From: a virus
Taxonomy: Duplodnaviria > Heunggongvirae > Uroviricota > Caudoviricetes
IMG/VR virus record: IMGVR_UViG_2909267149_000001
Length of the DNA: 48,774 nucleotides
Reading direction: 5' to 3' (one strand)
The first letter of the stretch is position 1; each line of letters starts with the position of its first letter. The translations under genes and the position numbers were made by a program. The notes below the pieces were generated by a model that searched no databases, was not told the DNA's origin, and saw only the letters and a program-made list of their open reading frames with translations. Positions 7,663 to 28,218 of the stretch are shown here, piece after piece.

Positions 7663-7917
7663 TTACTTCTGGTTGTATTGAGCCTTGAGTAACTCAAAAG
7701 ATTTTGTCAGCACTTCTTTCAATGACATATCCATTGAGCTGGCGAACGTTTTGTACTCGCGTTTAAATTCAGGGTCGACGTTAAACGCCATTTGTGCCCC
7801 ACCTGATTTGGTTCTGGTTGGCGTTTCAGTCGGGTCGAAAACCTGCGGTTGTTCGATCGATGGCGGTACGCCTTTGCTGTTCTTCTTTGGTGGTTTTGAT
7901 GGTGCGGCCATGTGCAT
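7663..7917 (-). CDS. Small partition/regulatory protein, ParG-like (possible ribbon-helix-helix)
   Basis: 84-aa protein directly downstream of a ParA-type ATPase in the same operon; disordered basic N-terminus and structured C-terminus typical of ParG-like centromere binders. Confidence 0.45.
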   Translation of the reverse strand: MHMAAPSKPPKKNSKGVPPSIEQPQVFDPTETPTRTKSGGAQMAFNVDPEFKREYKTFASSMDMSLKEVLTKSFELLKAQYNQK

Positions 7918-7954
7918 CCCCTCTTATATAAATCTATAAAACTATAATTATATA

Positions 7955-8608
7955 TTACGCGGCAGTAGTCAGAGCCTCAAGCTGGTTGATAATCCCCTGA
8001 ATAACGTCGTCTGCCTTTTTGCGTGGCGCAACGTATGAGCACTCAATGAGGCTTAAGCCCTTATCCTGAGCTTTGCTCAGAGCTGGCTTGTGGGGAATGT
8101 ACTTATCGACAACAAAGTATGGCGTATTAGCCAGGTACTCTTGGGCTTCAATATAGTCAGCTTCGTTTTCAGCCGCGCCGGAAAACACCATGCAAATTTT
8201 CTTGATTGGTACACCCTTTTTAACGATGCCGTGAGCTGTGTTAACGGTGGTTTCCAGGTCATCGGTAGAGAATCTGGTTGGCAAAATAACCATATCCAGA
8301 AATTCAGAGAGCTTCGGTACTGATTCAGATGCGTAGGCACCGCCATCTACGATAACCAGGTCGTATACTTCTGATTCGATGATTTTCTGGACTTGTGATG
8401 GTGTGCCGCACGGCTGTGCCGCGATTGCTGGTTCGATATTGTTGGCCATTCTGCGTTGTACCCAACGCGTTACCGTTCCGTTAAGCACATCCATATCGAT
8501 CAGGCATACATTCCAGCCAGCCTTTGCATAAGCAACTGCTAAAGCACGAGCAATGGTTGATTTGGTTACGCCGCCTTTTCCGTTGAAAATACCTACAGAT
8601 ATAGTCAT
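7955..8608 (-). CDS. Partition ATPase, ParA/ParF family (Walker-type)
   Basis: Deviant Walker A GKGGVTKST near the N-terminus; start at 8608 preferred, 8623 is the alternative upstream ATG. Confidence 0.8.
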   Translation of the reverse strand: MTISVGIFNGKGGVTKSTIARALAVAYAKAGWNVCLIDMDVLNGTVTRWVQRRMANNIEPAIAAQPCGTPSQVQKIIESEVYDLVIVDGGAYASESVPKLSEFLDMVILPTRFSTDDLETTVNTAHGIVKKGVPIKKICMVFSGAAENEADYIEAQEYLANTPYFVVDKYIPHKPALSKAQDKGLSLIECSYVAPRKKADDVIQGIINQLEALTTAA

Positions 8609-8623
8609 TTGTCGAGACTCCAT

Positions 8624-8758
8624 GTGTTTGATTATATAATTCTATAAATCTATATTTATAGAATGAGGTAAGCATAACCAACTTTTTGGCGGATGAAAAG
8701 CGTTTTATATAATTATATAAATCTATAATCATATAAGCGGGCGTTAGCCCGCTTGCAG
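8624..8758. repeat. AT-rich repeat array upstream of the partition operon (candidate centromere/operator)
   Basis: Two blocks of tatataattatataaatctata-type repeats containing the TATAATTATA palindrome. Confidence 0.5.
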
Positions 8759-9225: not shown

Positions 9226-9882
9226 TCATAACCAGTTGACAACACTAACTACGCGGCCAAGAACTTTATAACGCTTAAATTCCTCGTTATTCAGATGCTT
9301 AGTGTTCATTTCAGCATCCCTTTCGGTTGACAGCATAACAGCATTGTCACCCGGTATGACTCTACAGTGCCTCAAAACAACCAGGCCATTTCTGTCTTCA
9401 AGGGCATAGATCCCCTCATGAATCTCTGTATCGTCTGTATTAATCAGGACTTGGGAGCCAGGGGATATTGTTGGTGACATTAACTCATCGTTGCTCTGGA
9501 GAACTGACAGAGACGATGGGTTGATGTTCTTGCTTCGTAGAATCTCCTGTTCTATCGCCAGCACTGGCTTTTCTCCGGCGTGCGATGCTATGTCATTTTT
9601 TATAGCTACAAGCCCAGGAATAACAGGAGCGTTAGTATTCTGGGGTGGGAACGGGTTATCTGTTAAGCACGCGATATAAGGCGCTGATGCTTTCAGGGCG
9701 TGCGCGATTTTCTTGATGGCAGGTATAGATGGTTGTCTTAATCCGGCCTCATAGTTCTGCAAGGTGCTTAAGCCTATTCCAGTGACTTGCTGGAGATCTC
9801 CGGCAGTCATGCCGGATTGTTTCCGTAGAGTCTGAATGCGCAGACCTATTTCTTTCTTGATGTTCTCGTCGTTGCTTTTCAT
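9226..9882 (-). CDS. CI-like repressor (N-terminal XRE HTH, C-terminal S24 LexA-like peptidase domain)
   Basis: 218 aa; N-terminal HTH; C-terminal domain with candidate Ser (LMSPTISPGS) and Lys (YKVLGR) dyad; divergent from a Cro-like gene across an operator region. Confidence 0.8.
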   Translation of the reverse strand: MKSNDENIKKEIGLRIQTLRKQSGMTAGDLQQVTGIGLSTLQNYEAGLRQPSIPAIKKIAHALKASAPYIACLTDNPFPPQNTNAPVIPGLVAIKNDIASHAGEKPVLAIEQEILRSKNINPSSLSVLQSNDELMSPTISPGSQVLINTDDTEIHEGIYALEDRNGLVVLRHCRVIPGDNAVMLSTERDAEMNTKHLNNEEFKRYKVLGRVVSVVNWL

Positions 9883-16355: not shown

Positions 16356-16689
16356 TGAGAAACCATGCGCTTACGAGCAGTATTCAGATATTCAGAGCGG
16401 GTAATGAAGCACATACAACCGAAAACATGGCAGAAACTGGACTCTATGGGAGTTAAGTTGGAGAAGATTACTCAACTTAAGCAGTGGCATATCGGCGAAT
16501 ATTATGGAAGTCCTGGTCGGGATGTTCGGTTGGTAAAAAGTTGAACATTGCTTTTTTATTGATCGATTAACCACGATATGAAGGTTTTTTTATGGGAAAA
16601 CCTTGTTTTAGGTGGTAACTGGGTGTAGTGTTTCATTTAACGTAGTAAAACTGCGTTAAGCGATTACCGCGTAATTTGTTGCTTTATGA

Positions 16690-16720
16690 AGCCCTGCCTT
16701 TTTCGGCGGGGCTTTTTTTT
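16690..16720 (+). terminator. Rho-independent terminator upstream of the lysis cassette
   Basis: gccctgcc-tttttc-ggcggggc hairpin (one G-U pair) followed by T8. Confidence 0.5.
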
Positions 16721-18509: not shown

Positions 18510-18585
18510 GGCCCCTTAGCTCAGTGGTTAGAGCAGGCGACTCATAATCGCACGGTCATCGGTTCAAATCCGGTAGGGGCCACCA
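18510..18585 (+). tRNA. tRNA with anticodon CAU (tRNA-Ile2-like or tRNA-Met), 76 nt with encoded CCA
   Basis: Cloverleaf: acceptor GGCCCCT/AGGGGCC, D-arm AGCTCAGTGGTTAGAGC, anticodon loop CTCATAA, T-arm GGTTCAAATCC; close to E. coli ileX from memory. Confidence 0.85.
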
Positions 18586-18893: not shown

Positions 18894-19481
18894 ATGGAGG
18901 CAATTGCATTGTTTAATCTGATTTATGCAGATCCCCCCTGGGAATACAAAGACAAGTGTAAGGATGGGAATCGTGGAGCTGGTTTTAAGTATCCAACGAT
19001 GAAAGCTGAGGAGATTGCTCGTATTCCTGTCTGGCAGCTTGCTAATCCTGAATCGTGTTTGTTGGCCATGTGGTGGGTTCCGACTCAGCCAGAAGAAGCG
19101 TTGCTGGTGGTGAAAGCATGGGGATTCAGGCTGATGACCATGAAGGGCTTCACATGGAACAAATGTGGTAGCCGACAGCCAGATAAGCTGGTGATGGGGA
19201 TGGGGCATATGACTCGTGCGAACAGTGAAGATTGCTTGTTTGCGGTAAAAGGCAAACTGCCGACTCGCCTTGATGCGGGGATCATTCAGTCGTTTACATC
19301 GCCTCGTCTGGAACATTCACGGAAGCCTGATGTGGTTCGTGACAAGCTGGTAAGACTGTTAGGTGATGTTCCTCGTATTGAGCTGTTTGCTCGCGGTGAT
19401 TTACCTGATGGCTGGCATGGCTGGGGCAACCAGTGCAACGGAGGTATCCAGTTGCATGATGCTCTCTGGCAAGTGTCATAG
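18894..19481 (+). CDS. DNA N6-adenine methyltransferase, MT-A70 family
   Basis: Catalytic DPPW motif (YADPPWEY) near the N-terminus. Confidence 0.75.
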   Translation: MEAIALFNLIYADPPWEYKDKCKDGNRGAGFKYPTMKAEEIARIPVWQLANPESCLLAMWWVPTQPEEALLVVKAWGFRLMTMKGFTWNKCGSRQPDKLVMGMGHMTRANSEDCLFAVKGKLPTRLDAGIIQSFTSPRLEHSRKPDVVRDKLVRLLGDVPRIELFARGDLPDGWHGWGNQCNGGIQLHDALWQVS

Positions 19482-20060: not shown

Positions 20061-20082
20061 ACCGTAACGATAACGAACAACG

Positions 20083-20110
20083 AGCCTCGGCAATTGCCGG
20101 GGCTTTTTTA
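20083..20110 (+). terminator. Terminator-like hairpin
   Basis: gcctcggcaattgccggggc followed by T6. Confidence 0.45.
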
Positions 20111-20976: not shown

Positions 20977-21690
20977 ATGATGCATTTAAAAAATATCAGT
21001 GCGCCGCTTATTGATCCCCGCGGCAAACATCCAGATGTGCTACCGCTTTTTACTGAAGACGGAAGAAATTGGTATGAGGAGCAGAAGAAATTTCAGCCTC
21101 ACACTTTAAAGATGATGTATGACAATAACGGCATTATCCGCAGTGTTTCGAAAGATGTATCGTTGCTTTGCCCGGATGGGATGAGTGTTATTGAGTTACC
21201 TGATACCGATGAGTATCGAAAAGTAGATAACACAGGTGATTGGCTCGTCAAAGATGTTCAAATTGTGAAGCGTGAAGGTCCAGAGCAGCGAGAAAACTCA
21301 CCGATATCTATTGGTGCAGAGTCTGTTCCGTTTAAGTTTGAATTATCCCAACTGGTAACAATGCGTATCAGTGACGAATGGGGAGAAGTTCAAGCCCGTG
21401 CTCAGTATGCAAATGGCGAAAACCAGTATCTGATTCACTATCAGGCGGCTGATGGCCGTGCTACTACAGAGTGGTTCGGTGAGTCGATGCTGATTGCGAT
21501 GGAGGATAAACGTCATCCTGGCTGTCCTGTTTTTGCCTGTATTGATCTGCCAGAAGGCGCGGTACTTGAAGACGACAAAGAAGAATGGTCGCCTGATGGC
21601 GAACTTGTCATTACCGGAATCGTGGATGGTAAGCCGAGATACTCTCGCATTGAGGTAAATAACGGCCACATCTGTTTGATACCAGAGTAA
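20977..21690 (+). CDS. Tail-fibre-assembly-chaperone-like protein (third paralog, extended C-terminus)
   Basis: N-terminus MMHLKNI...NWYEEQKKFQP...LKMMYD matches the two chaperones at 45707 and 46796. Confidence 0.5.
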   Translation: MMHLKNISAPLIDPRGKHPDVLPLFTEDGRNWYEEQKKFQPHTLKMMYDNNGIIRSVSKDVSLLCPDGMSVIELPDTDEYRKVDNTGDWLVKDVQIVKREGPEQRENSPISIGAESVPFKFELSQLVTMRISDEWGEVQARAQYANGENQYLIHYQAADGRATTEWFGESMLIAMEDKRHPGCPVFACIDLPEGAVLEDDKEEWSPDGELVITGIVDGKPRYSRIEVNNGHICLIPE

Positions 21691-21924: not shown

Positions 21925-22548
21925 ATGACAAAACAACTTAATGTGGTTTCTTTACCACTTTCTGTGTTGATTGGTTATGAAAAGAACGCTCGCACACACT
22001 CCGTGGAGCAGGTAGATCAGATTGTTGCCAGCATACAGGAGTACGGATGGACTAATCCGATCCTGATAGACGAGAACAACGTTGTAATTGCTGGTCATGG
22101 TCGAATTGCTGCGGCCACTCAGTTGGGGATGGATGATGTTCCCTGCATTGTTCTGGCTGGGCTAACGGAGAATCAGAAGAAGGCATATCGTCTGGCCGAC
22201 AACCGTATTCCGCTGAATGCTGGTTGGGATGAAGAGTTGTTAAGCGCGGAGCTTGCAGATCTTGCGGCCGATGATTTTGCTCTGGACTCAATTGGTTTTA
22301 CTCAGCGCGAACTGGATAACTTATTGAGTGTGGCGGTCTACGATGACACAGAAGGTATGGATATCCCATTTGAGAAGGATGAGGCCAAATCAGGCGTAAA
22401 AGTTCAGTACCTGTCATTTGGAGGTCATAAAATCCCGGCAACGGATGAGGAAGCGGATCGTTTTGACTGCGCGGTGTCTCGTTATGTTGATGATAATGGC
22501 AGCTATATCGGATTTGTATCCGCATTGCTGGCTGGGGAGGTGTGCTGA
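21925..22548 (+). CDS. ParB N-terminal-domain (ParB/Srx-like) protein
   Basis: ParB-N-like motifs including GHGR; paralogous to the 25215 ORF. Confidence 0.55.
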   Translation: MTKQLNVVSLPLSVLIGYEKNARTHSVEQVDQIVASIQEYGWTNPILIDENNVVIAGHGRIAAATQLGMDDVPCIVLAGLTENQKKAYRLADNRIPLNAGWDEELLSAELADLAADDFALDSIGFTQRELDNLLSVAVYDDTEGMDIPFEKDEAKSGVKVQYLSFGGHKIPATDEEADRFDCAVSRYVDDNGSYIGFVSALLAGEVC

Positions 22549-23921
22549 TGCTTCACCTCAATTACGACATAACGCACCTACGCGGCGCGGAATATAACCC
22601 GCGTTTTATCGGTGAGGATGATCTTGCGAGGCTGGCGGAAAGCGTCAGGGAGCTGGGGCTTGTGAAGCCATTGATAGTGCGCGGCGATTTGCTGGTGGCG
22701 GGACACCAAAGGACGAAGGCGCTACGTAAATTGGGAATAACGCGTGCTGCGGTGTATGTGTTGCCCTGTGAAACGACGGTATACGACGAAGTACGGTTTA
22801 ACCAACTGCATAACGGAACGGATTTTGATAGCGGAGATGAGCGTTGCAGGGTGTCCGGTCTGGAAGATAAGCATGGTTTTGTTCAGGTATCGGCAAGCCA
22901 GATCTCAGGCAATATGCGCGCGAAAATGGCATATGTTCGAAAGAACATAGCGGAACTGGTTATCAAGTATGGTCCGTGGGGTGGTTGTGTTGCTACTCAG
23001 TCTGGTGAGGTTATTCACTGTGCTCAGTATGCATTAGCAGCGAAAATGACGCGCACACCGCTAACGGTGTTTGTGATCCCTGATGTTGAGAAGGAAAAAT
23101 ACCAAAGTTATCTGAATAAAACTTATGGTGTATTTGAGTATTCTCATCTGGAGAAAACAACATACATCCAGACGTATGCGCAGCTTATGCGGTTGCGTAA
23201 TGGTGGCAGCCTGAAATCAAATCTGTATGAGTCGTTGATCCTCCCGATCATTGCCAAGACGCCAAGAGGAATTGATTTTGGTTCGGGGCAGGGAGACTAC
23301 GCGCGAATGCTCAGGGCAAAGGGATATAACCTGCATGATCTCGAGCTTTTCCGCCGTAAGGGCGCTGGAAACACTCTGGATAGGGCTGCAACAAACCGAA
23401 TGATTGATACGCTGGTGGACGACTTAAAAACGCGAGGGCGTTACGACTACGTGATTTGCGATAGCGTTTTGAACTCGGTCGATAGTGTCGAGGCTGAATG
23501 GTCCGTTCTGACGGTTCTGAAAGGCCTGTGTAAAGCTGGTGGGTCAATATTCTTTTCTGGTCGTAGCCGTGGAGAGCTGGAAACAGTCCTGAAGCAAACA
23601 CAAGCGGCGAGTTCCAAAAGCCGGCTTTATTTTATTGATCATAACGGTTTTACCGCGTTGTACCGGAAGGGGCACTGGTTTTACCAGAAGTTTCACTCTG
23701 ATGATGAAGTGAAGCAGTTGTGTCGTGTACATGGTTTCAGGATTAAGCGGTCAATATTCAACTGTAAGAGCTGGTATTTGCACGTCATTAACGATGATTC
23801 CCTTAGTTGGGCGAGTCTGGAGAAAGCTGTTCGTTTTGAGTTTGAGTTGCCGTTGCCTGGTGGTTCAACAATCGGACGATCTGATGATGTGCTGGCGGCT
23901 TTCCGGCCGTTGATTAAGTAG
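22548..23921 (+). CDS. ParB-N-domain protein fused to a class-I SAM-dependent methyltransferase-like domain
   Basis: N-terminal ParB-like region (GHQR); C-terminal motif I IDFGSGQGD, acidic residue after beta-2 (LHDLE), YDYVICDSVLN and LKGLCKAGGSIFF motifs; no DPPY/DPPW-type motif seen. Confidence 0.55.
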   Translation: MLHLNYDITHLRGAEYNPRFIGEDDLARLAESVRELGLVKPLIVRGDLLVAGHQRTKALRKLGITRAAVYVLPCETTVYDEVRFNQLHNGTDFDSGDERCRVSGLEDKHGFVQVSASQISGNMRAKMAYVRKNIAELVIKYGPWGGCVATQSGEVIHCAQYALAAKMTRTPLTVFVIPDVEKEKYQSYLNKTYGVFEYSHLEKTTYIQTYAQLMRLRNGGSLKSNLYESLILPIIAKTPRGIDFGSGQGDYARMLRAKGYNLHDLELFRRKGAGNTLDRAATNRMIDTLVDDLKTRGRYDYVICDSVLNSVDSVEAEWSVLTVLKGLCKAGGSIFFSGRSRGELETVLKQTQAASSKSRLYFIDHNGFTALYRKGHWFYQKFHSDDEVKQLCRVHGFRIKRSIFNCKSWYLHVINDDSLSWASLEKAVRFEFELPLPGGSTIGRSDDVLAAFRPLIK

Positions 23922-23937
23922 TGTGTAGGAGGCGCTG

Positions 23938-24657
23938 GTGGCTGACAGAATTGAGATAAAGATGGATTTTTCTTCTCAGGATATTCAACGACAACTCCAG
24001 CGCCTTGAAGAACGCGAATTGCCGTTCGCAATGGCGCTTGCGGCAACCAGAACGGCAAAGGCTTCTCAGGCTGCGATTAAGAATGAAATTAATCGGGTAT
24101 TTGACAGGCCCACGCCGTGGATTCAGAACTCTACTTACGTTTTGGCCGCAAAGAAGAGTGATCCTACAGCCATTGTGTATGCTCGTGAATGGGGAGGAAC
24201 GCCAGCCCCTGTAACGTTGACTCCGCAAATCGAAGGTGGCCAACGACAGTACAAACGCTCAGAAGGGGCGCTAAGGGCTGGTGGATATTTGCCTAACGGC
24301 TGGCAGCTTGCTCCTGGTCCCGGCGCAAAGCTGGACAAATACGGGAATATTTCGCGGGGGCAATTACAGCAGGTCTTATCTGGCCTAAGAGTTCAGCGAG
24401 ATGCGCATCAAAATCGCCGTCAGGGCAAGTCTACGGAGTTTTTTGTTGTTCGACCTGGTACAAGTAACCCGCTTCAACCAGGCGTCTGGCAGCGCGTTGG
24501 GCGGCGTCCTACGTTGATCCTTACGTTTATCCAGCAACCTAACTATTCGCAGCGTCTTGATTGGCATGGCGTGGCGCTGCGTGCTGGTGAGGATGCGTTT
24601 GCTGATGAAGTCACAAAGGCTATTGATGACATTCTTTCTAAGACCTTCTCTCGTTAA
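23938..24657 (+). CDS. Hypothetical protein
   Basis: 239-aa ORF with AGGAGG RBS before GTG start. Confidence 0.45.
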   Translation: MADRIEIKMDFSSQDIQRQLQRLEERELPFAMALAATRTAKASQAAIKNEINRVFDRPTPWIQNSTYVLAAKKSDPTAIVYAREWGGTPAPVTLTPQIEGGQRQYKRSEGALRAGGYLPNGWQLAPGPGAKLDKYGNISRGQLQQVLSGLRVQRDAHQNRRQGKSTEFFVVRPGTSNPLQPGVWQRVGRRPTLILTFIQQPNYSQRLDWHGVALRAGEDAFADEVTKAIDDILSKTFSR

Positions 24658-25214
24658 TCATCGTGTGGTTGATGGTGTTGTTATGCAGAGTGTATTCACT
24701 GTGTTCTGTAGCGTCGCTCGCTGGCTGTCTGTGGGGGAGCACGAGCATCGTTTCATCGTCCGGCAGAATTGGGTCCTTCTGGCCAAAAGCGTTGGATGCG
24801 GGTCATTCGAACCCCGATGTTCGGCTAGCTAAACGTGAAAAAAGTTAGGTTAAAAGTTGCGGTAAAAGAAATTTACTCATCTCATTGAAAAATATCGGGA
24901 AAACGTGATTTTTTGCTGTATTTGTGCTGGTAAAAAGAAAGTAGAAAATTTTCTTTTAGATCATCAAGATACGCGCAGATCTTTAACCAATGTGATGTTG
25001 TTCTGATAAAAATCGTTATAAATCATGCAAATACATCCAATCTTTTAACCAAAACACCATCTCAAGATCCTTTTTACTTATAAAAACTTAATAAAATCAG
25101 ATGATTATGCTGGTTTGTGTGATTTTTTATGAGTAAAAAGATCGTCATTTTTCTCTTTTAGTATCAATAAGTTAAACAGTTTTCTTTAACCTGTTGTGTT
25201 ATGGCGGTTAAAAA

Positions 25215-25805
25215 ATGGCTCTAAAAATCGAATATTTACCAGTCGGTAAGCTGCTCAGATACGCCAAAAATTCACGGACTCATTCAGATGAGCAGGTTGA
25301 ACAGTTGGTGAACAGTATCCGTGAGTTCGGTTTCACTAATCCTGTGCTGATCGATGAAAAGAATGAACTGATTGCGGGGCATGGTCGGCTTGCAGCAGCC
25401 GAAATTCTGGAAATGGATAAAGTTCCGGCGATTCGGTTGAGTAACCTTTCTGAAAAACAGAAGAAGGCTTACAGGATTGCAGATAACAAGCTGGCCTTAA
25501 ATGCTGGCTGGGATATGCAGCTTCTGGCCGAAGAAGTCAAAGAGTTAATGGATGATGATTTTGATATTGATCTGCTTGGGTTTAATGATGCAGAGCTTGA
25601 CGAAATGTTAAGCGATGAACAGCCGCAGGAAGAAGACGATAATTCTTCCCCTGTTGTTCAAATTAAGTACCTGTCTATTGATAAAGAACGTATTCCCGCG
25701 ACGGATATGGAAATTGCATTGTTGCTGGATGTTTATCGTCAGTACCACGACGCGCATGAAACGCATGAGGGATTTGTTCAGTATCTTGCTAATGGTTGCA
25801 AGTAA
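25215..25805 (+). CDS. ParB N-terminal-domain protein (paralog of the 21925 ORF)
   Basis: Shares extended blocks with the 21925 product (NPxLIDE, IAGHGR, QKKAYRxADN, LNAGWD); acidic C-terminus. Confidence 0.55.
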   Translation: MALKIEYLPVGKLLRYAKNSRTHSDEQVEQLVNSIREFGFTNPVLIDEKNELIAGHGRLAAAEILEMDKVPAIRLSNLSEKQKKAYRIADNKLALNAGWDMQLLAEEVKELMDDDFDIDLLGFNDAELDEMLSDEQPQEEDDNSSPVVQIKYLSIDKERIPATDMEIALLLDVYRQYHDAHETHEGFVQYLANGCK

Positions 25806-26356
25806 TGGCCATCGTCAGTAAGTCAGAGTTTGCTCGCCGGAAAGGTATTTCTCCGGCAATGGTTACGAAGCTCTGTCGTTCCGGTCGCATTCCAGTGCTG
25901 AAAAGCGGCAAGCTGGATTTTGATAAAGCCAGTGCGGCTTATGAAGCGAGCCGACAGGTTGGTCGTGAGGTATCTGCTGAAAATGGAAAAAGAGGGCATG
26001 GGATATCTTCGGAACAACCAGAGTTACCCGCTGATGATGCCGGATTAGCTGGTGGTACTTCCGGTGTTGCGGTGCAATTCAACAAGGCTAAGACCGCAGA
26101 AAAAATTTATCAGGCAAAGCTGAAACGCCTTGAATTTGAAGAAAAGGAAGGCTCTCTCATCGCTAAAGATGCGGTCAGGGATGATGCATTTCTGGCAGCT
26201 AATGAATTGCGTAGCCGCTTATTTAGTATTGCTCCAAGAGCAGCTCCCCGTTGTGAAGGCAAAACAGCCAGGGAGATCGAACGCATTATTGAAGACGAGA
26301 TTAATTTTGCGCTTCAGGCGCTCCAGGAATCCCGATTTATTAAGCAGGAAGAATAA
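25805..26356 (+). CDS. Putative terminase small subunit (HTH N-terminus)
   Basis: Position immediately upstream of the large terminase; N-terminal HTH-like segment; TAATG overlap with upstream gene. Confidence 0.45.
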   Translation: MAIVSKSEFARRKGISPAMVTKLCRSGRIPVLKSGKLDFDKASAAYEASRQVGREVSAENGKRGHGISSEQPELPADDAGLAGGTSGVAVQFNKAKTAEKIYQAKLKRLEFEEKEGSLIAKDAVRDDAFLAANELRSRLFSIAPRAAPRCEGKTAREIERIIEDEINFALQALQESRFIKQEE

Positions 26357-26361
26357 ACCTC

Positions 26362-28218
26362 ATGGGCGAAACAGTATGGAGCACCGCTTTTTTCCGTGCG
26401 CTTCGCCCTAAATCACGGCTAACTGTTTCCGAATGGGCTGATAAGTATCGTCATGTAGCGCCGGGAACGTCTCCAGAGCCAGGGCCGTGGCGTACAAGCC
26501 GAGTGCCATATTTGCGTGAACCAATGGATGTTATTGGTGACGCTGATACAGAAACAGTAGTGATGCAATGTAGCTCGCAAATTGGTAAATCCGAATTACA
26601 GCTAAATGTTATGGGTTACTTTGCAGATCAGGAGCCATCTCCTCAGTTGATGATTTATCCAACGGTAGAGGCGGCTGAGGCTTTTTCAAAAGAGCGTATT
26701 GATCCGACGTTCAAATATTCCCCTGGTTTGAAACACAAGCTGCATGAAGGGAAAGAGGGGCGCGGTGCAGCCAAAAAGTCCAGCACGACTATACGTATGA
26801 AGCATTACGCTGGTGGATATATAGCACTTGTTGGTGCTAATTCCCCAGCAGGTCTTGCATCCAGGCCAATTCGAATACTGTTAGCTGATGAGATTGATCG
26901 TTACGGTGTGACGCAGGAGGGCGACCCACTAAAACTAGGTATTCAGCGTACTACCAACTTTCATAATCGTAAGAAAGTTTTTGTTTCTACTCCTGTTTTG
27001 GAGGAAACGAGCAAAATCCACAAGTGGTTTAAGCTCTCCGATCAGCGTTACTACCATGTTCCTTGCCCATGTTGTGGCACCATGCAGGTGATGAAATGGT
27101 CGCAAGTCAGATGGGATAAGAGCGATTCAGGTGAGGCGTTACCGGAAACGGCCAGATATGAGTGCTGTGAGTGCGGCGGGATTATGCGCGGATCTGGTAA
27201 ACCAGACGTTGATTGGTTGGCGAAGGGGGTATGGATAGCTGAACATACTGGAGTTAAAGGTATTGTTGGTTTTCATATTAACAGTCTTTACTCCCCGTGG
27301 GTTGCATTGTCAGAGCTGGTTGAAGAATTTACGGAAGCAACCAGAAACCGCGATAAAAATGGATTAATGGAGTTTATTAACCTTAAGCTGGGTGAGCCAT
27401 GGAAAGAGGATGCTAAAGACGATATCGATCCTGAATACTTGTTGCAACGCAGAATAAGGTTTGAAGAGTTTTTACCAGATGATGTTTTATTGTTAAGTGC
27501 TGGTGTTGACGTACAGGACACGTATTTAGTTTGTGAATTGGTCGGTTGGGGAAAAGGTAAGGAGTCATGGGGGATAGAATATAAAATATTCCCAGGTGAT
27601 CCCGCACAAGATGTTGTCTGGAAACAACTTGATGAATACTTACTCCGTAGCTGGTCATTCCGTGACGGTCGAAAATTACAGATTTCTTCCGTTTGTATTG
27701 ACTCTGGTGGGCATTTTACGACAGAGGTATATCGCTTTACTAAGCCGAGAGAATCAAGGCGAATATACTCTATCAGGGGGCGTGGTGGGGTAGGTTTACC
27801 ATTTATAGGAAAGCCAAGTAATAATAACCGTGTGGGTGCTATGTTGTTTAATTTGGGGGTTGATGATGGTAAAGGGACCATCATGGCAAGAATTAAACTA
27901 CATGATCCTGGTCCTGGTTATATGCATTTCCCATTAGATTCTGACAGAGGATATGATACCGAATACTTTAAAGGATTATTATCAGAGAAGAAAATATTTG
28001 AATATAAAAATGGGCAGACAAAAGAAAAGTGGGTGAAAGTCTACGAGCGTAACGAGCCTCTTGATTGCCGTAACTATGCAACTGCCGCGATGGAAATTCT
28101 GAACCCTAATTTTAACTGGCTTGCCGAACAGGAAATGCGAGGTAATGTGTATGTGCAGAACTCGTCAGGTATACGTAGAAGACGCCGTAGAGTTATAAGT
28201 AAAGGCGTAACCATATAG
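26362..28218 (+). CDS. Terminase large subunit (lambda gpA-like)
   Basis: 618-aa protein with ATPase and nuclease regions; position before gpW-like and portal. Confidence 0.8.
   Translation: MGETVWSTAFFRALRPKSRLTVSEWADKYRHVAPGTSPEPGPWRTSRVPYLREPMDVIGDADTETVVMQCSSQIGKSELQLNVMGYFADQEPSPQLMIYPTVEAAEAFSKERIDPTFKYSPGLKHKLHEGKEGRGAAKKSSTTIRMKHYAGGYIALVGANSPAGLASRPIRILLADEIDRYGVTQEGDPLKLGIQRTTNFHNRKKVFVSTPVLEETSKIHKWFKLSDQRYYHVPCPCCGTMQVMKWSQVRWDKSDSGEALPETARYECCECGGIMRGSGKPDVDWLAKGVWIAEHTGVKGIVGFHINSLYSPWVALSELVEEFTEATRNRDKNGLMEFINLKLGEPWKEDAKDDIDPEYLLQRRIRFEEFLPDDVLLLSAGVDVQDTYLVCELVGWGKGKESWGIEYKIFPGDPAQDVVWKQLDEYLLRSWSFRDGRKLQISSVCIDSGGHFTTEVYRFTKPRESRRIYSIRGRGGVGLPFIGKPSNNNRVGAMLFNLGVDDGKGTIMARIKLHDPGPGYMHFPLDSDRGYDTEYFKGLLSEKKIFEYKNGQTKEKWVKVYERNEPLDCRNYATAAMEILNPNFNWLAEQEMRGNVYVQNSSGIRRRRRRVISKGVTI

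What the first reader, a model, noticed from the sequence alone, without database searches (positions are those of the whole stretch)
21925..25805. Cluster of three ParB-N-domain proteins, one fused to a non-canonical methyltransferase domain, just upstream of the terminase
Two stand-alone ParB-N paralogs (21925-22548 and 25215-25805) bracket a 459-aa ParB-N/class-I-methyltransferase fusion (22548-23921) and a 239-aa unknown protein (23938-24657). The fusion has a SAM-binding motif I (IDFGSGQGD) but I could not find the DPPY/DPPW-type motif of DNA amino-methyltransferases, whereas the separate MT-A70 enzyme at 18894 has a clear DPPW. ParB-N domains are CTP-binding DNA clamps or nucleases, so this looks like a DNA-targeting module of unknown function: a modification or anti-restriction system, or a packaging or segregation accessory. 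It is distinct from the ParA-type partition locus at 7663-8758.
Basis: partly seen in the sequence, partly recalled or inferred. Interest (0 to 1): 0.7.

Follow-up and report, generated by a model that had tools for sequence, protein, structure and literature searches.

The report
ParB-partnered methyltransferase module beside terminase
Next to its DNA-packaging genes, this E. coli phage-plasmid carries a widely conserved but uncharacterised pair of proteins: a small acidic ParB-like protein and an enzyme made of two ParB-like domains plus a methyltransferase that lacks the motifs of the usual DNA methylases and probably marks nucleic acid.

Summary
The four ORFs are real and lie at the stated coordinates. 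The window is a ~48.8-kb E. coli myovirus-type phage-plasmid.

The conserved core is two genes, not four. A ~200-aa acidic ParB/Srx protein (ParB1) is translationally coupled to a ~460-aa enzyme (PHROG 5475). I find the enzyme to be ParB – degenerate second ParB domain – class-I SAM methyltransferase.

- **Pairing:** the pair recurs in 61 of 68 non-redundant loci spanning about eight phyla. Two metagenomic lineages fuse both genes into one protein.
- **Position:** it usually sits 0.3–2.5 kb upstream of a large terminase of any of four families.
- **ParB3:** a lineage-specific paralog of ParB1, translationally coupled to the small terminase gene.
- **The 239-aa protein:** an unrelated family tied to gpA-type terminases.
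- **cos:** a probable cos site (24801–24812) splits the cluster.

The methyltransferase domain keeps its SAM motifs. It has no DPPY-type motif in any of 68 relatives and resembles small-molecule and tRNA methyltransferases.

The ParB–Methyltransf_23 architecture was catalogued in 2025; its function is untested. My best reading, at 0.45, is a partner-regulated, late-expressed nucleic-acid (probably DNA) methylation module. It is not a partition system and not an established terminase accessory.

The parts
21925..22548 (+). ParB1, the partner ParB (207 aa). It has a ParB/Srx N-domain with AGHGR and ADN boxes, an acidic helical linker, a disordered acidic stretch, and a conserved ~50-aa C-terminal mini-domain. 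Net charge is -20.
22548..22841 (+). Fusion protein, domain 1 (aa 1-98): ParB/Srx N-domain with invariant YNPR, S..G..KP.I, AGHQR and FNQLHNGTD motifs.
   Evidence: aligns to the Spo0J box I/II region, VAGHQRTKA against VAGERRFRA; hhalign against the partner N-domain: probability 99.5%, E 5e-23.
22842..23147 (+). Fusion protein, domain 2 (aa 99-200): a degenerate second ParB/Srx-like domain. The GxxR box is replaced by IHCAQY. W144, G145, H157, Q160 and Y161 are invariant.
   Evidence: It has the same order of secondary-structure elements as domain 1 in the AF2 model. hhalign against the partner ParB N-domain profile gives probability 84%, E 8e-6, 68 columns in register. Controls with the MT domain give about 1%.
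23148..23921 (+). Fusion protein, domain 3 (aa ~201-457): class-I SAM-dependent methyltransferase. Motif I is IDFGSGQGDY; the acidic motif II is ELFRR; then D.V.CDSVLNSVD, FFSGR and WFYQKFH. There is no DPPY-type motif. The domain is basic (+10).
23938..24657 (+). p239: basic 239-aa protein of PHROG 1924. It is not part of the conserved ParB/MT pair. Its family sits directly upstream of cos, TerS and gpA-type TerL in other phages.
24801..24812 (.). Candidate 12-nt cohesive end (GGTCATTCGAAC) of cos, inside the 558-nt non-coding gap 24658-25214.
   Evidence: Three Yersinia phage records of the same phage break at window 24800/24801 or at 24812/24813. The terminase is gpA-type. This is an inference, not a mapped end.
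25215..25805 (+). ParB3: second partner-type ParB (196 aa, 49% identical to ParB1, same C-terminal mini-domain, net charge -19). It is found only in this phage lineage. Its stop codon overlaps the TerS start codon (TAATG).
   Evidence: (phrog_620, E 2e-75).
25805..26356 (+). Small terminase subunit (context).
   Evidence: phrog_57, E 7e-42; start codon as annotated in the record shown and confirmed.
26362..28218 (+). Large terminase subunit, lambda gpA type (context).
   Evidence: GpA_ATPase E 7e-76, GpA_nuclease E 1e-84.
18894..19481 (+). Stand-alone MT-A70 DNA adenine methyltransferase with DPPW (context). It is a bona fide amino-methyltransferase in the same block of + strand genes.
   Evidence: E 2e-23; phrog_359.

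Best explanation
The core is a two-component, phage-borne methylation module.

**The enzyme (22548-23921).**
- It has a ParB/Srx nucleotide-binding domain that keeps the box I, II and III equivalents.
- A second ParB-like domain follows that has lost the GxxR arginine.
- A catalytically intact, basic, class-I SAM methyltransferase domain follows that.

**The partner.** The enzyme works with a dedicated small, very acidic ParB protein (ParB1), whose gene is translationally coupled to it. In this lineage ParB3 is a second copy of that partner, coupled to the small terminase gene.

**Proposed mechanism (inferred).**
1. The partner's and the enzyme's ParB domains engage each other under NTP control.
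2. This switches or positions the methyltransferase on nucleic acid, most likely replicated phage DNA.
3. It happens late in infection, as the genome is about to be packaged.
4. The methyl group goes to an atom other than the exocyclic amino groups used by DPPY-type enzymes.
5. The mark protects or regulates the DNA in the next host.

**Shown:** the domain anatomy, motif conservation, the obligate pairing, the natural fusions, the position beside the terminase, and purifying selection.

**Inferred:** NTP gating, physical complex formation, DNA as the substrate, and the timing and purpose.
For: **Anatomy.**
- The AF2 model has pLDDT 87.
- Invariant SAM motifs and ParB boxes hold across 21 sequences that share 45-73% identity with the window protein.
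- The second ParB-like domain is supported by hhalign at E 8e-6.

**Pairing.**
- A same-strand ParB ORF ends within 800 nt upstream of the enzyme in 61 of 68 loci with less than 80% identity, and within 150 nt in 53.
- The loci come from Proteobacteria, Bacillota, Chloroflexota, Planctomycetota, Myxococcota, Bacteroidota, Melainabacteria and Kiritimatiellia.
- Partner and enzyme are one polypeptide in P0383 and P0387.
- The start and stop codons overlap as TGATG.
- Charges are complementary: -20 against +12, and this holds family-wide.

**Links to DNA modification.**
- The partner's first ~150 residues are the same module that is fused to bona fide DNA methyltransferases: phrog_498 E 4e-50, PADLOC MTase_II E 6e-37, and 35-60% identity to the N-termini of annotated phage DNA methylases.
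- A phrog_498 methylase is an immediate neighbour of the pair in 6 of 96 flanking ORFs.
- Bacteroides phage BS-TP3 and a Bradyrhizobium prophage carry DNA-MTase-like genes nearby.

**Precedent.**
- A phage ParB with a nucleotide-binding domain and a C-terminal domain, but no DNA-binding domain, is a required activator of a thymine dioxygenase on dsDNA (PMC13229309).
- A ParB-fold/SAM-MT fusion bound ATP through its GxxR arginine (PMC12704722).

**Position and constraint.**
- The nearest large downstream ORF is a TerL of four different Pfam families in 38 of 59 loci.
- The downstream neighbour is often TerS.
- dN of the enzyme (0.060) is lower than that of TerL (0.080) in the same genome pair.
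Against: - No experiment exists for this family.
- The MT domain's closest structures are small-molecule, lipid, tRNA (Trm9) and cap-N7 enzymes. None is a DNA methyltransferase.
- No target-recognition domain or DNA-binding domain was recognised.
- The partner is highly acidic. Its C-terminal mini-domain has no match in Pfam or in PDB sequences.
- Late expression is inferred only from gene order and the absence of sigma-70-like promoters.
- In the 5mYOX precedent, mutating the NTP-binding residues did not abolish ParB's activating role, so NTP gating may not apply.
- A distant relative, in Brochothrix phage BtpYZU02, lacks the partner and sits in the replication module.
Confidence: 0.45

Rival explanations
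1. Non-DNA substrate. The enzyme uses its ParB/Srx domains as NTP-binding or phosphotransfer modules and its small-molecule-type methyltransferase to modify something other than DNA. Candidates are a nucleotide, a metabolite, an RNA (for example a tRNA) or a protein. The purpose would be host takeover or counter-defence, with the acidic partner acting as regulator or chaperone.
For: - There is no DPPY, PC or ENV motif in the MT domain.
- ParB/Srx-fold kinases and sulfiredoxin are among the best structural matches of the partner.
- A ParB/SAM-MT fusion binds ATP.
- PMC12704722 speculates that these fusions act in anti-defence.
Against: - The partner's N-terminal module is the one found on genuine DNA methylases.
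- The MT domain is basic across the family.
- The module is placed beside the terminase and next to DNA methylases.
- No biosynthetic or signalling genes are consistently nearby.
- The catalytic cysteine of sulfiredoxin is absent: the box reads AGHQR or AGHGR, not GGCHR.
Confidence: 0.25
2. Packaging accessory. The ParB-like proteins act at cos or pac as nickases, DNA-end binders or TerS helpers, analogous to the HNH endonucleases that sit next to cos and terminase genes. The methyltransferase would mark the packaging site or a packaging protein to time cleavage.
For: - The pair precedes TerS and TerL of four unrelated terminase families.
- ParB3 is translationally coupled to TerS.
- Stand-alone ParB-like proteins are the first gene at the left end of Rhodobacter, Vibrio and Aeromonas phage genomes.
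- The ParB domain of the ParB-methylase Bce_0392 nicks DNA (PMC5512222).
- HNH genes occupy the same slot in cos phages (PMC3592412 abstract).
Against: - The family is rare: 305 clusters at 50% identity among 1.84 billion proteins, and 7 of 50,697 cultured phage records. Most phages with the same terminase types therefore package without it.
- The slot before the terminase also collects ordinary DNA methylases and morons.
- In a Bradyrhizobium prophage the pair lies about 8 kb from the terminase, with opposite-strand genes in between.
- A conserved SAM methyltransferase has no known role in cos cleavage by gpA-type terminases.
Confidence: 0.2
3. Plasmid-prophage segregation. The ParB-N proteins are centromere-binding partition proteins for the phage-plasmid.
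For: They carry the ParB N-terminal fold, are annotated 'chromosome (plasmid) partitioning protein' in some records, and the element is a plasmid prophage.
Against: - No HTH domain is present. TIGR00180 scores are 16-40 bits against a cut-off of 58.
- No ParA gene is adjacent. The element has its own ParA plus small-protein locus 13 kb away on the other strand.
- The pair is conserved in integrated prophages and in phages of many phyla, beside terminase genes.
- The proteins are acidic and short.
Confidence: 0.03

Closest known systems
ParB-CTPase fold + Methyltransf_23 (PF13489) fusion proteins of phages (Kaljevic et al. 2025, PMC12704722); PHROG 5475
   Same: Same architecture and family: phrog_5475 E 2e-265 over the full length, PF02195 plus PF13489, and enrichment in phages and prophages.
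   Different: That survey lists the architecture only and calls it a 'predicted DNA methyltransferase'. Four points do not appear in the parts of the paper I read:
- the second, degenerate ParB domain;
- the obligate small ParB partner;
- the partner-enzyme fusions;
- the position beside the terminase.

Whether the ATP-binding SAM-MT fusion they tested belongs to this family is unknown.
ParB-dependent phage thymine dioxygenases (5mYOX176/ParB176; O'Toole et al. 2026, PMC13229309)
   Same: A DNA-modifying enzyme is encoded next to a stand-alone phage ParB. That ParB has a nucleotide-binding domain and a C-terminal domain but no DNA-binding domain, and it acts as a cognate-specific activator. 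Terminases are frequent neighbours.
   Different: The enzyme there is an Fe/2OG dioxygenase without ParB domains of its own. Here the enzyme is a SAM methyltransferase that itself carries two ParB-fold domains. Activation and the DNA substrate are untested here.
ParB-N / N6-N4 DNA methyltransferase fusions (PHROG 498; PADLOC MTase_II; B. cereus Bce_0392)
   Same: ParB1 and ParB3 match the first ~150 residues of these enzymes, that is the N-domain plus the acidic GWD...GF...EL linker, at E 1e-37 to 1e-52. Such enzymes neighbour the pair in some phages.
   Different: Those enzymes carry a DPPY-type amino-methyltransferase domain. ParB1 and ParB3 have a ~50-aa mini-domain in its place. The window's fusion has a different ParB subtype (AGHQR) and a methyltransferase without DPPY.
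Canonical ParB of ParABS partition systems, and KorB/Noc-type CTP clamps
   Same: N-terminal fold and the box I/II/III layout.
   Different: There is no HTH DNA-binding domain, no adjacent ParA, GERR is replaced by GHGR or GHQR, and scores fall below the TIGR00180 cut-off.
HNH endonucleases encoded next to cos and terminase genes
   Same: Same genomic slot directly before TerS and TerL.
   Different: There is no HNH motif or fold. A functional interaction with the terminase is not shown.
Sulfiredoxin / SerK / SbnI (ParB/Srx-fold ATP-dependent phosphotransferases)
   Different: The sulfiredoxin catalytic Cys is absent, and the context is a phage late region rather than metabolism.

Membership tests
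Canonical ParB (ParABS; TIGR00180) | ParB/Srx N-terminal nucleotide-binding domain with a GERRxRA box II | tested here: inconclusive
   The fold is present. The box reads AGHGR (ParB1, ParB3) or AGHQR (fusion), so only the Gly and the last Arg are kept. Nucleotide binding was not tested.
Canonical ParB (ParABS; TIGR00180) | Central HTH DNA-binding domain, and a whole-protein score above the model's cut-off | tested here: not met
   TIGR00180 scores are 29.6, 16.4 and 40.0 bits against a cut-off of 58.45. No HTH Pfam hit was found. The AF2 model of ParB1 shows linker helices, a disordered acidic stretch and a beta-hairpin with two helices.
Canonical ParB (ParABS; TIGR00180) | Operon partner ParA and parS sites | tested here: not met
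   The only ParA (7955-8623, minus strand) lies 13 kb away with its own 84-aa partner. No ParA lies beside the pair in the related loci whose gene tables were read. parS sites were not searched for.
DNA amino-methyltransferases (N6A/N4C; N6_N4_Mtase, MT-A70, N6_Mtase) | Catalytic motif IV (D/N/S)PP(Y/F/W) | tested here: not met
   0 of 68 non-redundant family members have it. The MT-A70 positive control has DPPW. The MT domain has no Pfam hit to these families.
DNA amino-methyltransferases (N6A/N4C; N6_N4_Mtase, MT-A70, N6_Mtase) | SAM-binding motif I (D/E-x-G-x-G-x-G) on a class-I Rossmann fold | tested here: met
C5-cytosine DNA methyltransferases | PC (motif IV) and ENV (motif VI) in the MT domain; Pfam DNA_methylase | tested here: not met
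   There is no ENV. The only 'PC' is at residue 73, inside the ParB domain. No PF00145 hit was found.
ParB-CTPase + Methyltransf_23 phage fusions (PHROG 5475; PMC12704722) | PF02195 and PF13489 in one polypeptide, encoded in phages or prophages | tested here: met
   (E 2e-265, full-length).
ParB-activated DNA-modifying enzyme systems (5mYOX/ParB type) | Enzyme gene adjacent to a stand-alone ParB with a nucleotide-binding domain plus a C-terminal domain and no DNA-binding domain | tested here: met
.
ParB-activated DNA-modifying enzyme systems (5mYOX/ParB type) | Enzyme activity on dsDNA depends on the cognate ParB | not testable with these tools
   This needs co-expression or in-vitro reconstitution.
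HNH-type terminase accessory endonucleases | HNH/zinc-ribbon catalytic motif | tested here: not met
   None of the four proteins has an HNH hit in Pfam, PHROG or NCBIfam.

The most novel reading that the evidence does not exclude
The pair is a new kind of phage DNA-modification system. A class-I methyltransferase of the small-molecule lineage, carrying an intramolecular ParB/pseudo-ParB pair, is switched on by heterotypic, NTP-dependent engagement with a dedicated acidic ParB partner. It then installs a non-canonical methyl mark on genomes as they are packaged. The mark would not be m6A, m4C or m5C; it could be a ring-nitrogen, oxygen or backbone methylation. If so, ParB N-domain engagement would serve as a general on-switch for DNA-modifying enzymes, and phage DNA would carry an undescribed modification.
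Probability: 0.2. Interest if true: 0.8.

Novelty: new variant of a known kind. Interest (0 to 1): 0.55.

Why it matters
ParB-fold proteins are being recognised as NTP switches used well beyond chromosome segregation, and one phage ParB has just been shown to activate a DNA dioxygenase.

This locus supplies a compact second system in a cultivable host. The element occurs in E. coli, including as a plasmid of ATCC 25922, and as Yersinia phages that plate. In it the enzyme itself carries ParB domains and has an obligate ParB partner.

The family is as conserved as the terminase, spans about eight bacterial phyla, and has no known substrate. Identifying the substrate could reveal a new DNA or RNA mark. 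It could also show how ParB-ParB engagement regulates an enzyme.

For annotation, the results show three things:
- 'Partition protein' and 'nuclease' labels on these genes are unsupported.
- The 'minor tail protein' label of PHROG 1924 is doubtful.
- The ParB genes next to terminases form definable families.

Tried and rejected
1. **Ribbon-helix-helix reading of the partner's C-terminal mini-domain.** The beta-alpha-alpha pattern suggested it. A profile search of PDB sequences and Pfam scans of 31 members gave nothing significant (best E 0.04, to an unrelated stretch). It stays unassigned.
2. **Solved structures.** Sequence searches found only the generic ParB N-domain and weak methyltransferase hits for the fusion and ParB3. 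They found nothing for p239, alone or as a profile.
3. **Defence-system and NCBIfam libraries.** These gave only N-terminal matches to ParB-methylase, Noc and ParB models, all below their cut-offs.
4. **Internal duplication, first test.** Domain 1 against domain 2 directly gave probability 4% and E 0.009. It became convincing only against the partner N-domain profile.
5. A Pfam scan of 136 downstream ORFs exceeded the size limit. I redid both with smaller or permitted sets.
6. **Literature.** Searches on the phage names returned only two papers that mention one of them, and I did not read either. Searches on ParB-like nucleases and packaging found no functional study. PMC3763556 is not held. 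The supplements of PMC12704722 did not identify the tested SAM-MT fusion.
7. **Partition function.** Rejected on architecture and context.
8. **cos.** The three 15-nt direct repeats at 24922-25086 could be cosB-like TerS sites. I did not adopt this, because phage vB_YpM_44 lacks about 90 bp of this stretch and short AT-rich repeats are often chance matches.

Full report
**What the window is.**
The 4.9 kb around the finding is 99-99.9% identical to about sixty 47-50-kb circular, non-mobilizable E. coli plasmids, including a plasmid of ATCC 25922. It also matches Yersinia phages vB_YpM_39/41/44 and Escherichia phage vB_EcoM-613R2.

The annotated relative NZ_CP070025 gives the gene layout:
- a ParA gene and repressor-type genes, mostly on the opposite strand;
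- then one long + strand block: recombination and accessory genes, holins and endolysin, MT-A70, small ORFs, the ParB cluster, TerS, gpA-type TerL, portal, head genes and contractile-tail genes.

The element is therefore a myovirus-type phage-plasmid, and the finding lies between the lysis cassette and the packaging genes.

**Check of the observation.**
All four ORFs are present at the stated coordinates.
- Pfam sees ParB_N only weakly in the three proteins, and Methyltransf_23 in the fusion.
- PHROG profiles are decisive: phrog_620 for ParB1 and ParB3 (E 8e-74, 2e-75), phrog_5475 ('unknown function', full length, E 2e-265) for the fusion, and phrog_1924 for the 239-aa protein.
- ParB1 and ParB3 are 49% identical end to end. 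The fusion's N-domain is only distantly related to them.
- Motif I (IDFGSGQG) is present. No (D/N/S)PP(Y/F/W/H) motif exists in the fusion or in any of 68 non-redundant relatives. The MT-A70 at 18894 has DPPW.
- The fusion from the ATG at 22548 is 457 aa.
- The genes are under strong purifying selection: dN/dS is about 0.03-0.07 against a 90%-identical relative. The fusion's dN is below that of TerL. dS is near saturation, so the ratios are approximate.

**Anatomy of the enzyme.**
The family is large in sequence space but uniform in length.
- I found 771 hits among clusters at 90% identity, nearly all 455-480 aa.
- There are 305 clusters at 50% identity with E <= 1e-30 among 1.84 billion representatives.

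An alignment of 21 members, which share 45-73% identity with the window protein, shows blocks of invariant residues in all three parts. AF2 gives a confident model (pLDDT 87, pTM 0.82) with three domains.
- **Residues 1-98** are a ParB/Srx domain. HMMER aligns them with B. subtilis Spo0J so that LAESVRELGLVKPLIV matches box I and VAGHQRTKA matches VAGERRFRA. The glycine and the last arginine of the GxxR P-motif are invariant. That arginine is the residue whose mutation abolishes NTP binding in ParB-fold proteins (PMC12704722).
- **Residues 99-200** repeat the same strand and helix order. Against the profile of the partner ParB N-domain they align in register over 68 columns (hhalign probability 84%, E 8e-6). 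Controls with the methyltransferase domain give about 1%. The GxxR box has become IHCAQY, so this is a degenerate second ParB-like domain.

**The partner.**
- In 68 loci dereplicated at 80% identity, a same-strand ParB ORF ends within 800 nt upstream of the enzyme in 61, and within 150 nt in 53. Several of the exceptions lie at contig edges.
- The loci come from viral contigs and from genomes of Enterobacterales, Alphaproteobacteria, Bacillota, Chloroflexota, Pirellulaceae, Myxococcales, Bacteroidaceae, Melainabacteria and Kiritimatiellae.
- In the window the two genes overlap as TGATG, behind a GGAGG Shine-Dalgarno sequence.
- The partner family has four parts: a ParB N-domain (AGHGR box, ADN box); an acidic helical linker (GWD..LL..EL......GF...EL, net charge about -10 family-wide); a disordered acidic stretch; and a conserved ~50-aa C-terminal mini-domain (YL.F....IP.T..E...L...YV.E.G..FGF..LL, modelled as a beta-hairpin plus two helices).
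- There is no HTH domain. The whole protein carries a net charge of -20, against +12 for the enzyme.
- Two metagenomic cluster representatives, P0383 (658 aa) and P0387 (659 aa), are natural fusions of a complete partner to the N-terminus of the enzyme. Neither has a separate ParB gene upstream.

The recurring adjacency, the translational coupling, the complementary charge and these Rosetta-stone fusions together are strong evidence that the two proteins act together. A physical complex is inferred, not shown.

**ParB3, p239 and cos.**
*ParB3.* It has the partner-specific C-terminal mini-domain, so it is a true paralog of ParB1.
- It occurs only in this phage lineage and its 70-90%-identical relatives.
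- Its stop codon overlaps the TerS start codon as TAATG.

*p239.* It is also confined to close relatives of this locus, but its family is found elsewhere.
- Homologues are the last gene at the right end of Pseudomonas phages F10, MD8 and JBD68.
- They lie 0.1-1.4 kb upstream of a gpA-type TerL in three of three distant metagenomic phages examined.
- The family has no Pfam domain, no name and no PDB relative.
- It is therefore a separate gene that sits before gpA-type terminases. The PHROG label 'minor tail protein' is not supported by its context.

*cos.* The three Yersinia phage records break at window 24800/24801 or at 24812/24813.
- This points to a 12-nt cohesive end (GGTCATTCGAAC) in the 558-nt non-coding gap, which fits a gpA-type terminase.
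- If so, ParB1, the enzyme and p239 are the last genes of the virion DNA, and ParB3, TerS and TerL are the first. The cluster is contiguous only in circular or concatemeric DNA.

**Position relative to the terminase.**
- Of 59 non-redundant loci with a same-strand ORF of at least 380 aa within 7 kb downstream, the nearest is a large terminase in 38. These split into Terminase_6 (16), gpA (12), TerL_ATPase/nuclease (5) and Terminase_3 (5). It usually lies 0.3-2.5 kb away.
- The immediate downstream neighbour is often a small terminase of one of seven PHROG families.
- Bacteroides phage BS-TP3 shows the minimal layout: ParB gp51 – enzyme gp52 – TerS gp53 – TerL gp54.
- Exceptions exist. In a Bradyrhizobium prophage the terminase is about 8 kb away. 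A distant, partner-less relative in Brochothrix phage BtpYZU02 sits in the replication module.
- The same slot also holds ordinary ParB-N6/N4 DNA methylases next to the pair in six cases.

**What it most likely does.**
Several lines link the module to DNA modification.
- The partner's first ~150 residues are the module found at the N-terminus of genuine phage DNA methylases: phrog_498 E 4e-50, PADLOC MTase_II E 6e-37, and 35-60% identity to annotated methylases.
- DNA methylases are recurrent neighbours.
- The enzyme's catalytic domain is basic.

There is also a direct precedent. A phage ParB with a nucleotide-binding and a C-terminal domain, but no DNA-binding domain, is a cognate-specific activator required for a thymine dioxygenase to act on dsDNA. 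Terminases are among the commonest neighbours of such pathways (PMC13229309).

I therefore favour, at 0.45, a two-component methylation module in which the partner regulates or positions the enzyme on nucleic acid, most likely phage DNA. Expression would be late, on the read-through transcript that also covers the lysis and packaging genes.
- Late expression is inferred from gene order, from the lack of sigma-70-like promoters, and from strong terminator-like hairpins at 16688 and 20082 that a late antiterminated transcript would need to pass.
- Because the DPPY motif is absent throughout the family, the chemistry would not be exocyclic-amino methylation.

Three rivals remain.
- A non-DNA substrate (0.25). 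This is favoured by the fold neighbours and by the existence of ParB/Srx kinases.
- A packaging accessory role (0.2). This is favoured by the position and by the ParB3-TerS coupling, and disfavoured by the rarity of the family among phages with the same terminases.
- Plasmid partition (0.03). This is contradicted by the architecture and the context.

**Relation to what is known, and novelty.**
- The ParB-CTPase + Methyltransf_23 architecture is listed as phage-enriched and of unknown function in PMC12704722. The family also has its own PHROG. The existence of the fusion is therefore already known.
- No experimental study of it was found. It occurs in only 7 of 50,697 cultured phage records.
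- Four points came out of this analysis: the second, degenerate ParB domain; the obligate acidic partner with its own C-terminal mini-domain; the natural partner-enzyme fusions; and the terminase-type-independent position.
- It fails the membership tests for canonical ParB, for DNA amino-methyltransferases and for C5-methyltransferases. It meets those for the catalogued fusion class, and it meets the architectural test for ParB-partnered DNA-modifying systems.
- I rate it a new variant of a known kind, with interest 0.55. It is not a categorically new system, but it is a well-defined, tractable and deeply conserved module whose substrate is unknown.

Noticed in passing
window 23938-24657; L134 7001-7747; L135 5001-5747; L136 5001-5765: The 239-aa protein family (PHROG 1924, labelled 'minor tail protein') has no Pfam or PDB relative. 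It sits directly upstream of TerS and gpA-type TerL in distant phages, and it is the last gene of the linear genomes of Pseudomonas phages F10, MD8 and JBD68. It looks like an uncharacterised gene tied to lambda-type terminases, not a tail gene.
   Followed up: partly
window 24801-24812 and 24922-25086: Record boundaries of three Yersinia phage genomes fall 12 nt apart, which suggests a 12-nt cohesive end (GGTCATTCGAAC). Three 15-nt direct repeats spaced 74-76 nt lie downstream and could be cosB-like. However, phage vB_YpM_44 lacks about 90 bp of that stretch.
   Followed up: partly
window 25803-25807: The ParB3 stop codon and the small-terminase start codon overlap as TAATG, so a ParB-like gene is translationally coupled to TerS. 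ParB-like genes are also the first gene at the left end of Rhodobacter, Vibrio and Aeromonas phage genomes.
   Followed up: partly
L102, L105, L107, L108 (Chloroflexota genomes): Chloroflexota loci carry two or three tandem full-length copies of the ParB-ParB'-MT gene. ParB-like ORFs lie 0.4-3 kb upstream and 3.4-4.6 kb downstream of them, not abutting as elsewhere.
   Followed up: no
P0383 (L130 1045-3021), P0387 (L131 442-2421): These are natural single-polypeptide fusions of the partner ParB and the ParB-ParB'-MT enzyme (658 and 659 aa), found in two metagenomes.
   Followed up: yes
window 18510-18585: A phage-encoded tRNA-Met (CAU anticodon) lies between the lysis cassette and the MT-A70 gene. 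It is also annotated in Yersinia phage vB_YpM_44.
   Followed up: no
window 20977-21690: A 237-aa ORF just upstream of ParB1 combines an N-terminal tail-fibre-assembly (Caudo_TAP, phrog_136) segment with a C-terminal segment of unknown function (phrog_1935). It lies more than 20 kb from the tail-fibre genes. In NZ_CP070025 only its C-terminal 141 codons are annotated.
   Followed up: no
window 7663-8623 (-) and 9226-9882 (-): The plasmid's own partition locus is a small ParA (222 aa) followed by an 84-aa protein with no Pfam hit, which suggests a type Ib-like layout. A CI-like repressor (HTH_3 + Peptidase_S24) lies next to it.
   Followed up: partly
L003-L005 (Bradyrhizobium prophage), 11-17 kb of each locus: Downstream of the pair, on the opposite strand, lie Amidoligase_2, GGACT/AIG2 and an N6_Mtase/MTS-like gene. 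This is a gene set associated with peptide or base modification chemistry.
   Followed up: no
window 16688-16715 and 20082-20105: Two strong intrinsic-terminator-like hairpins lie on the + strand within the long co-oriented late gene block. One is just before the holin genes. This fits antitermination-dependent late transcription.
   Followed up: no
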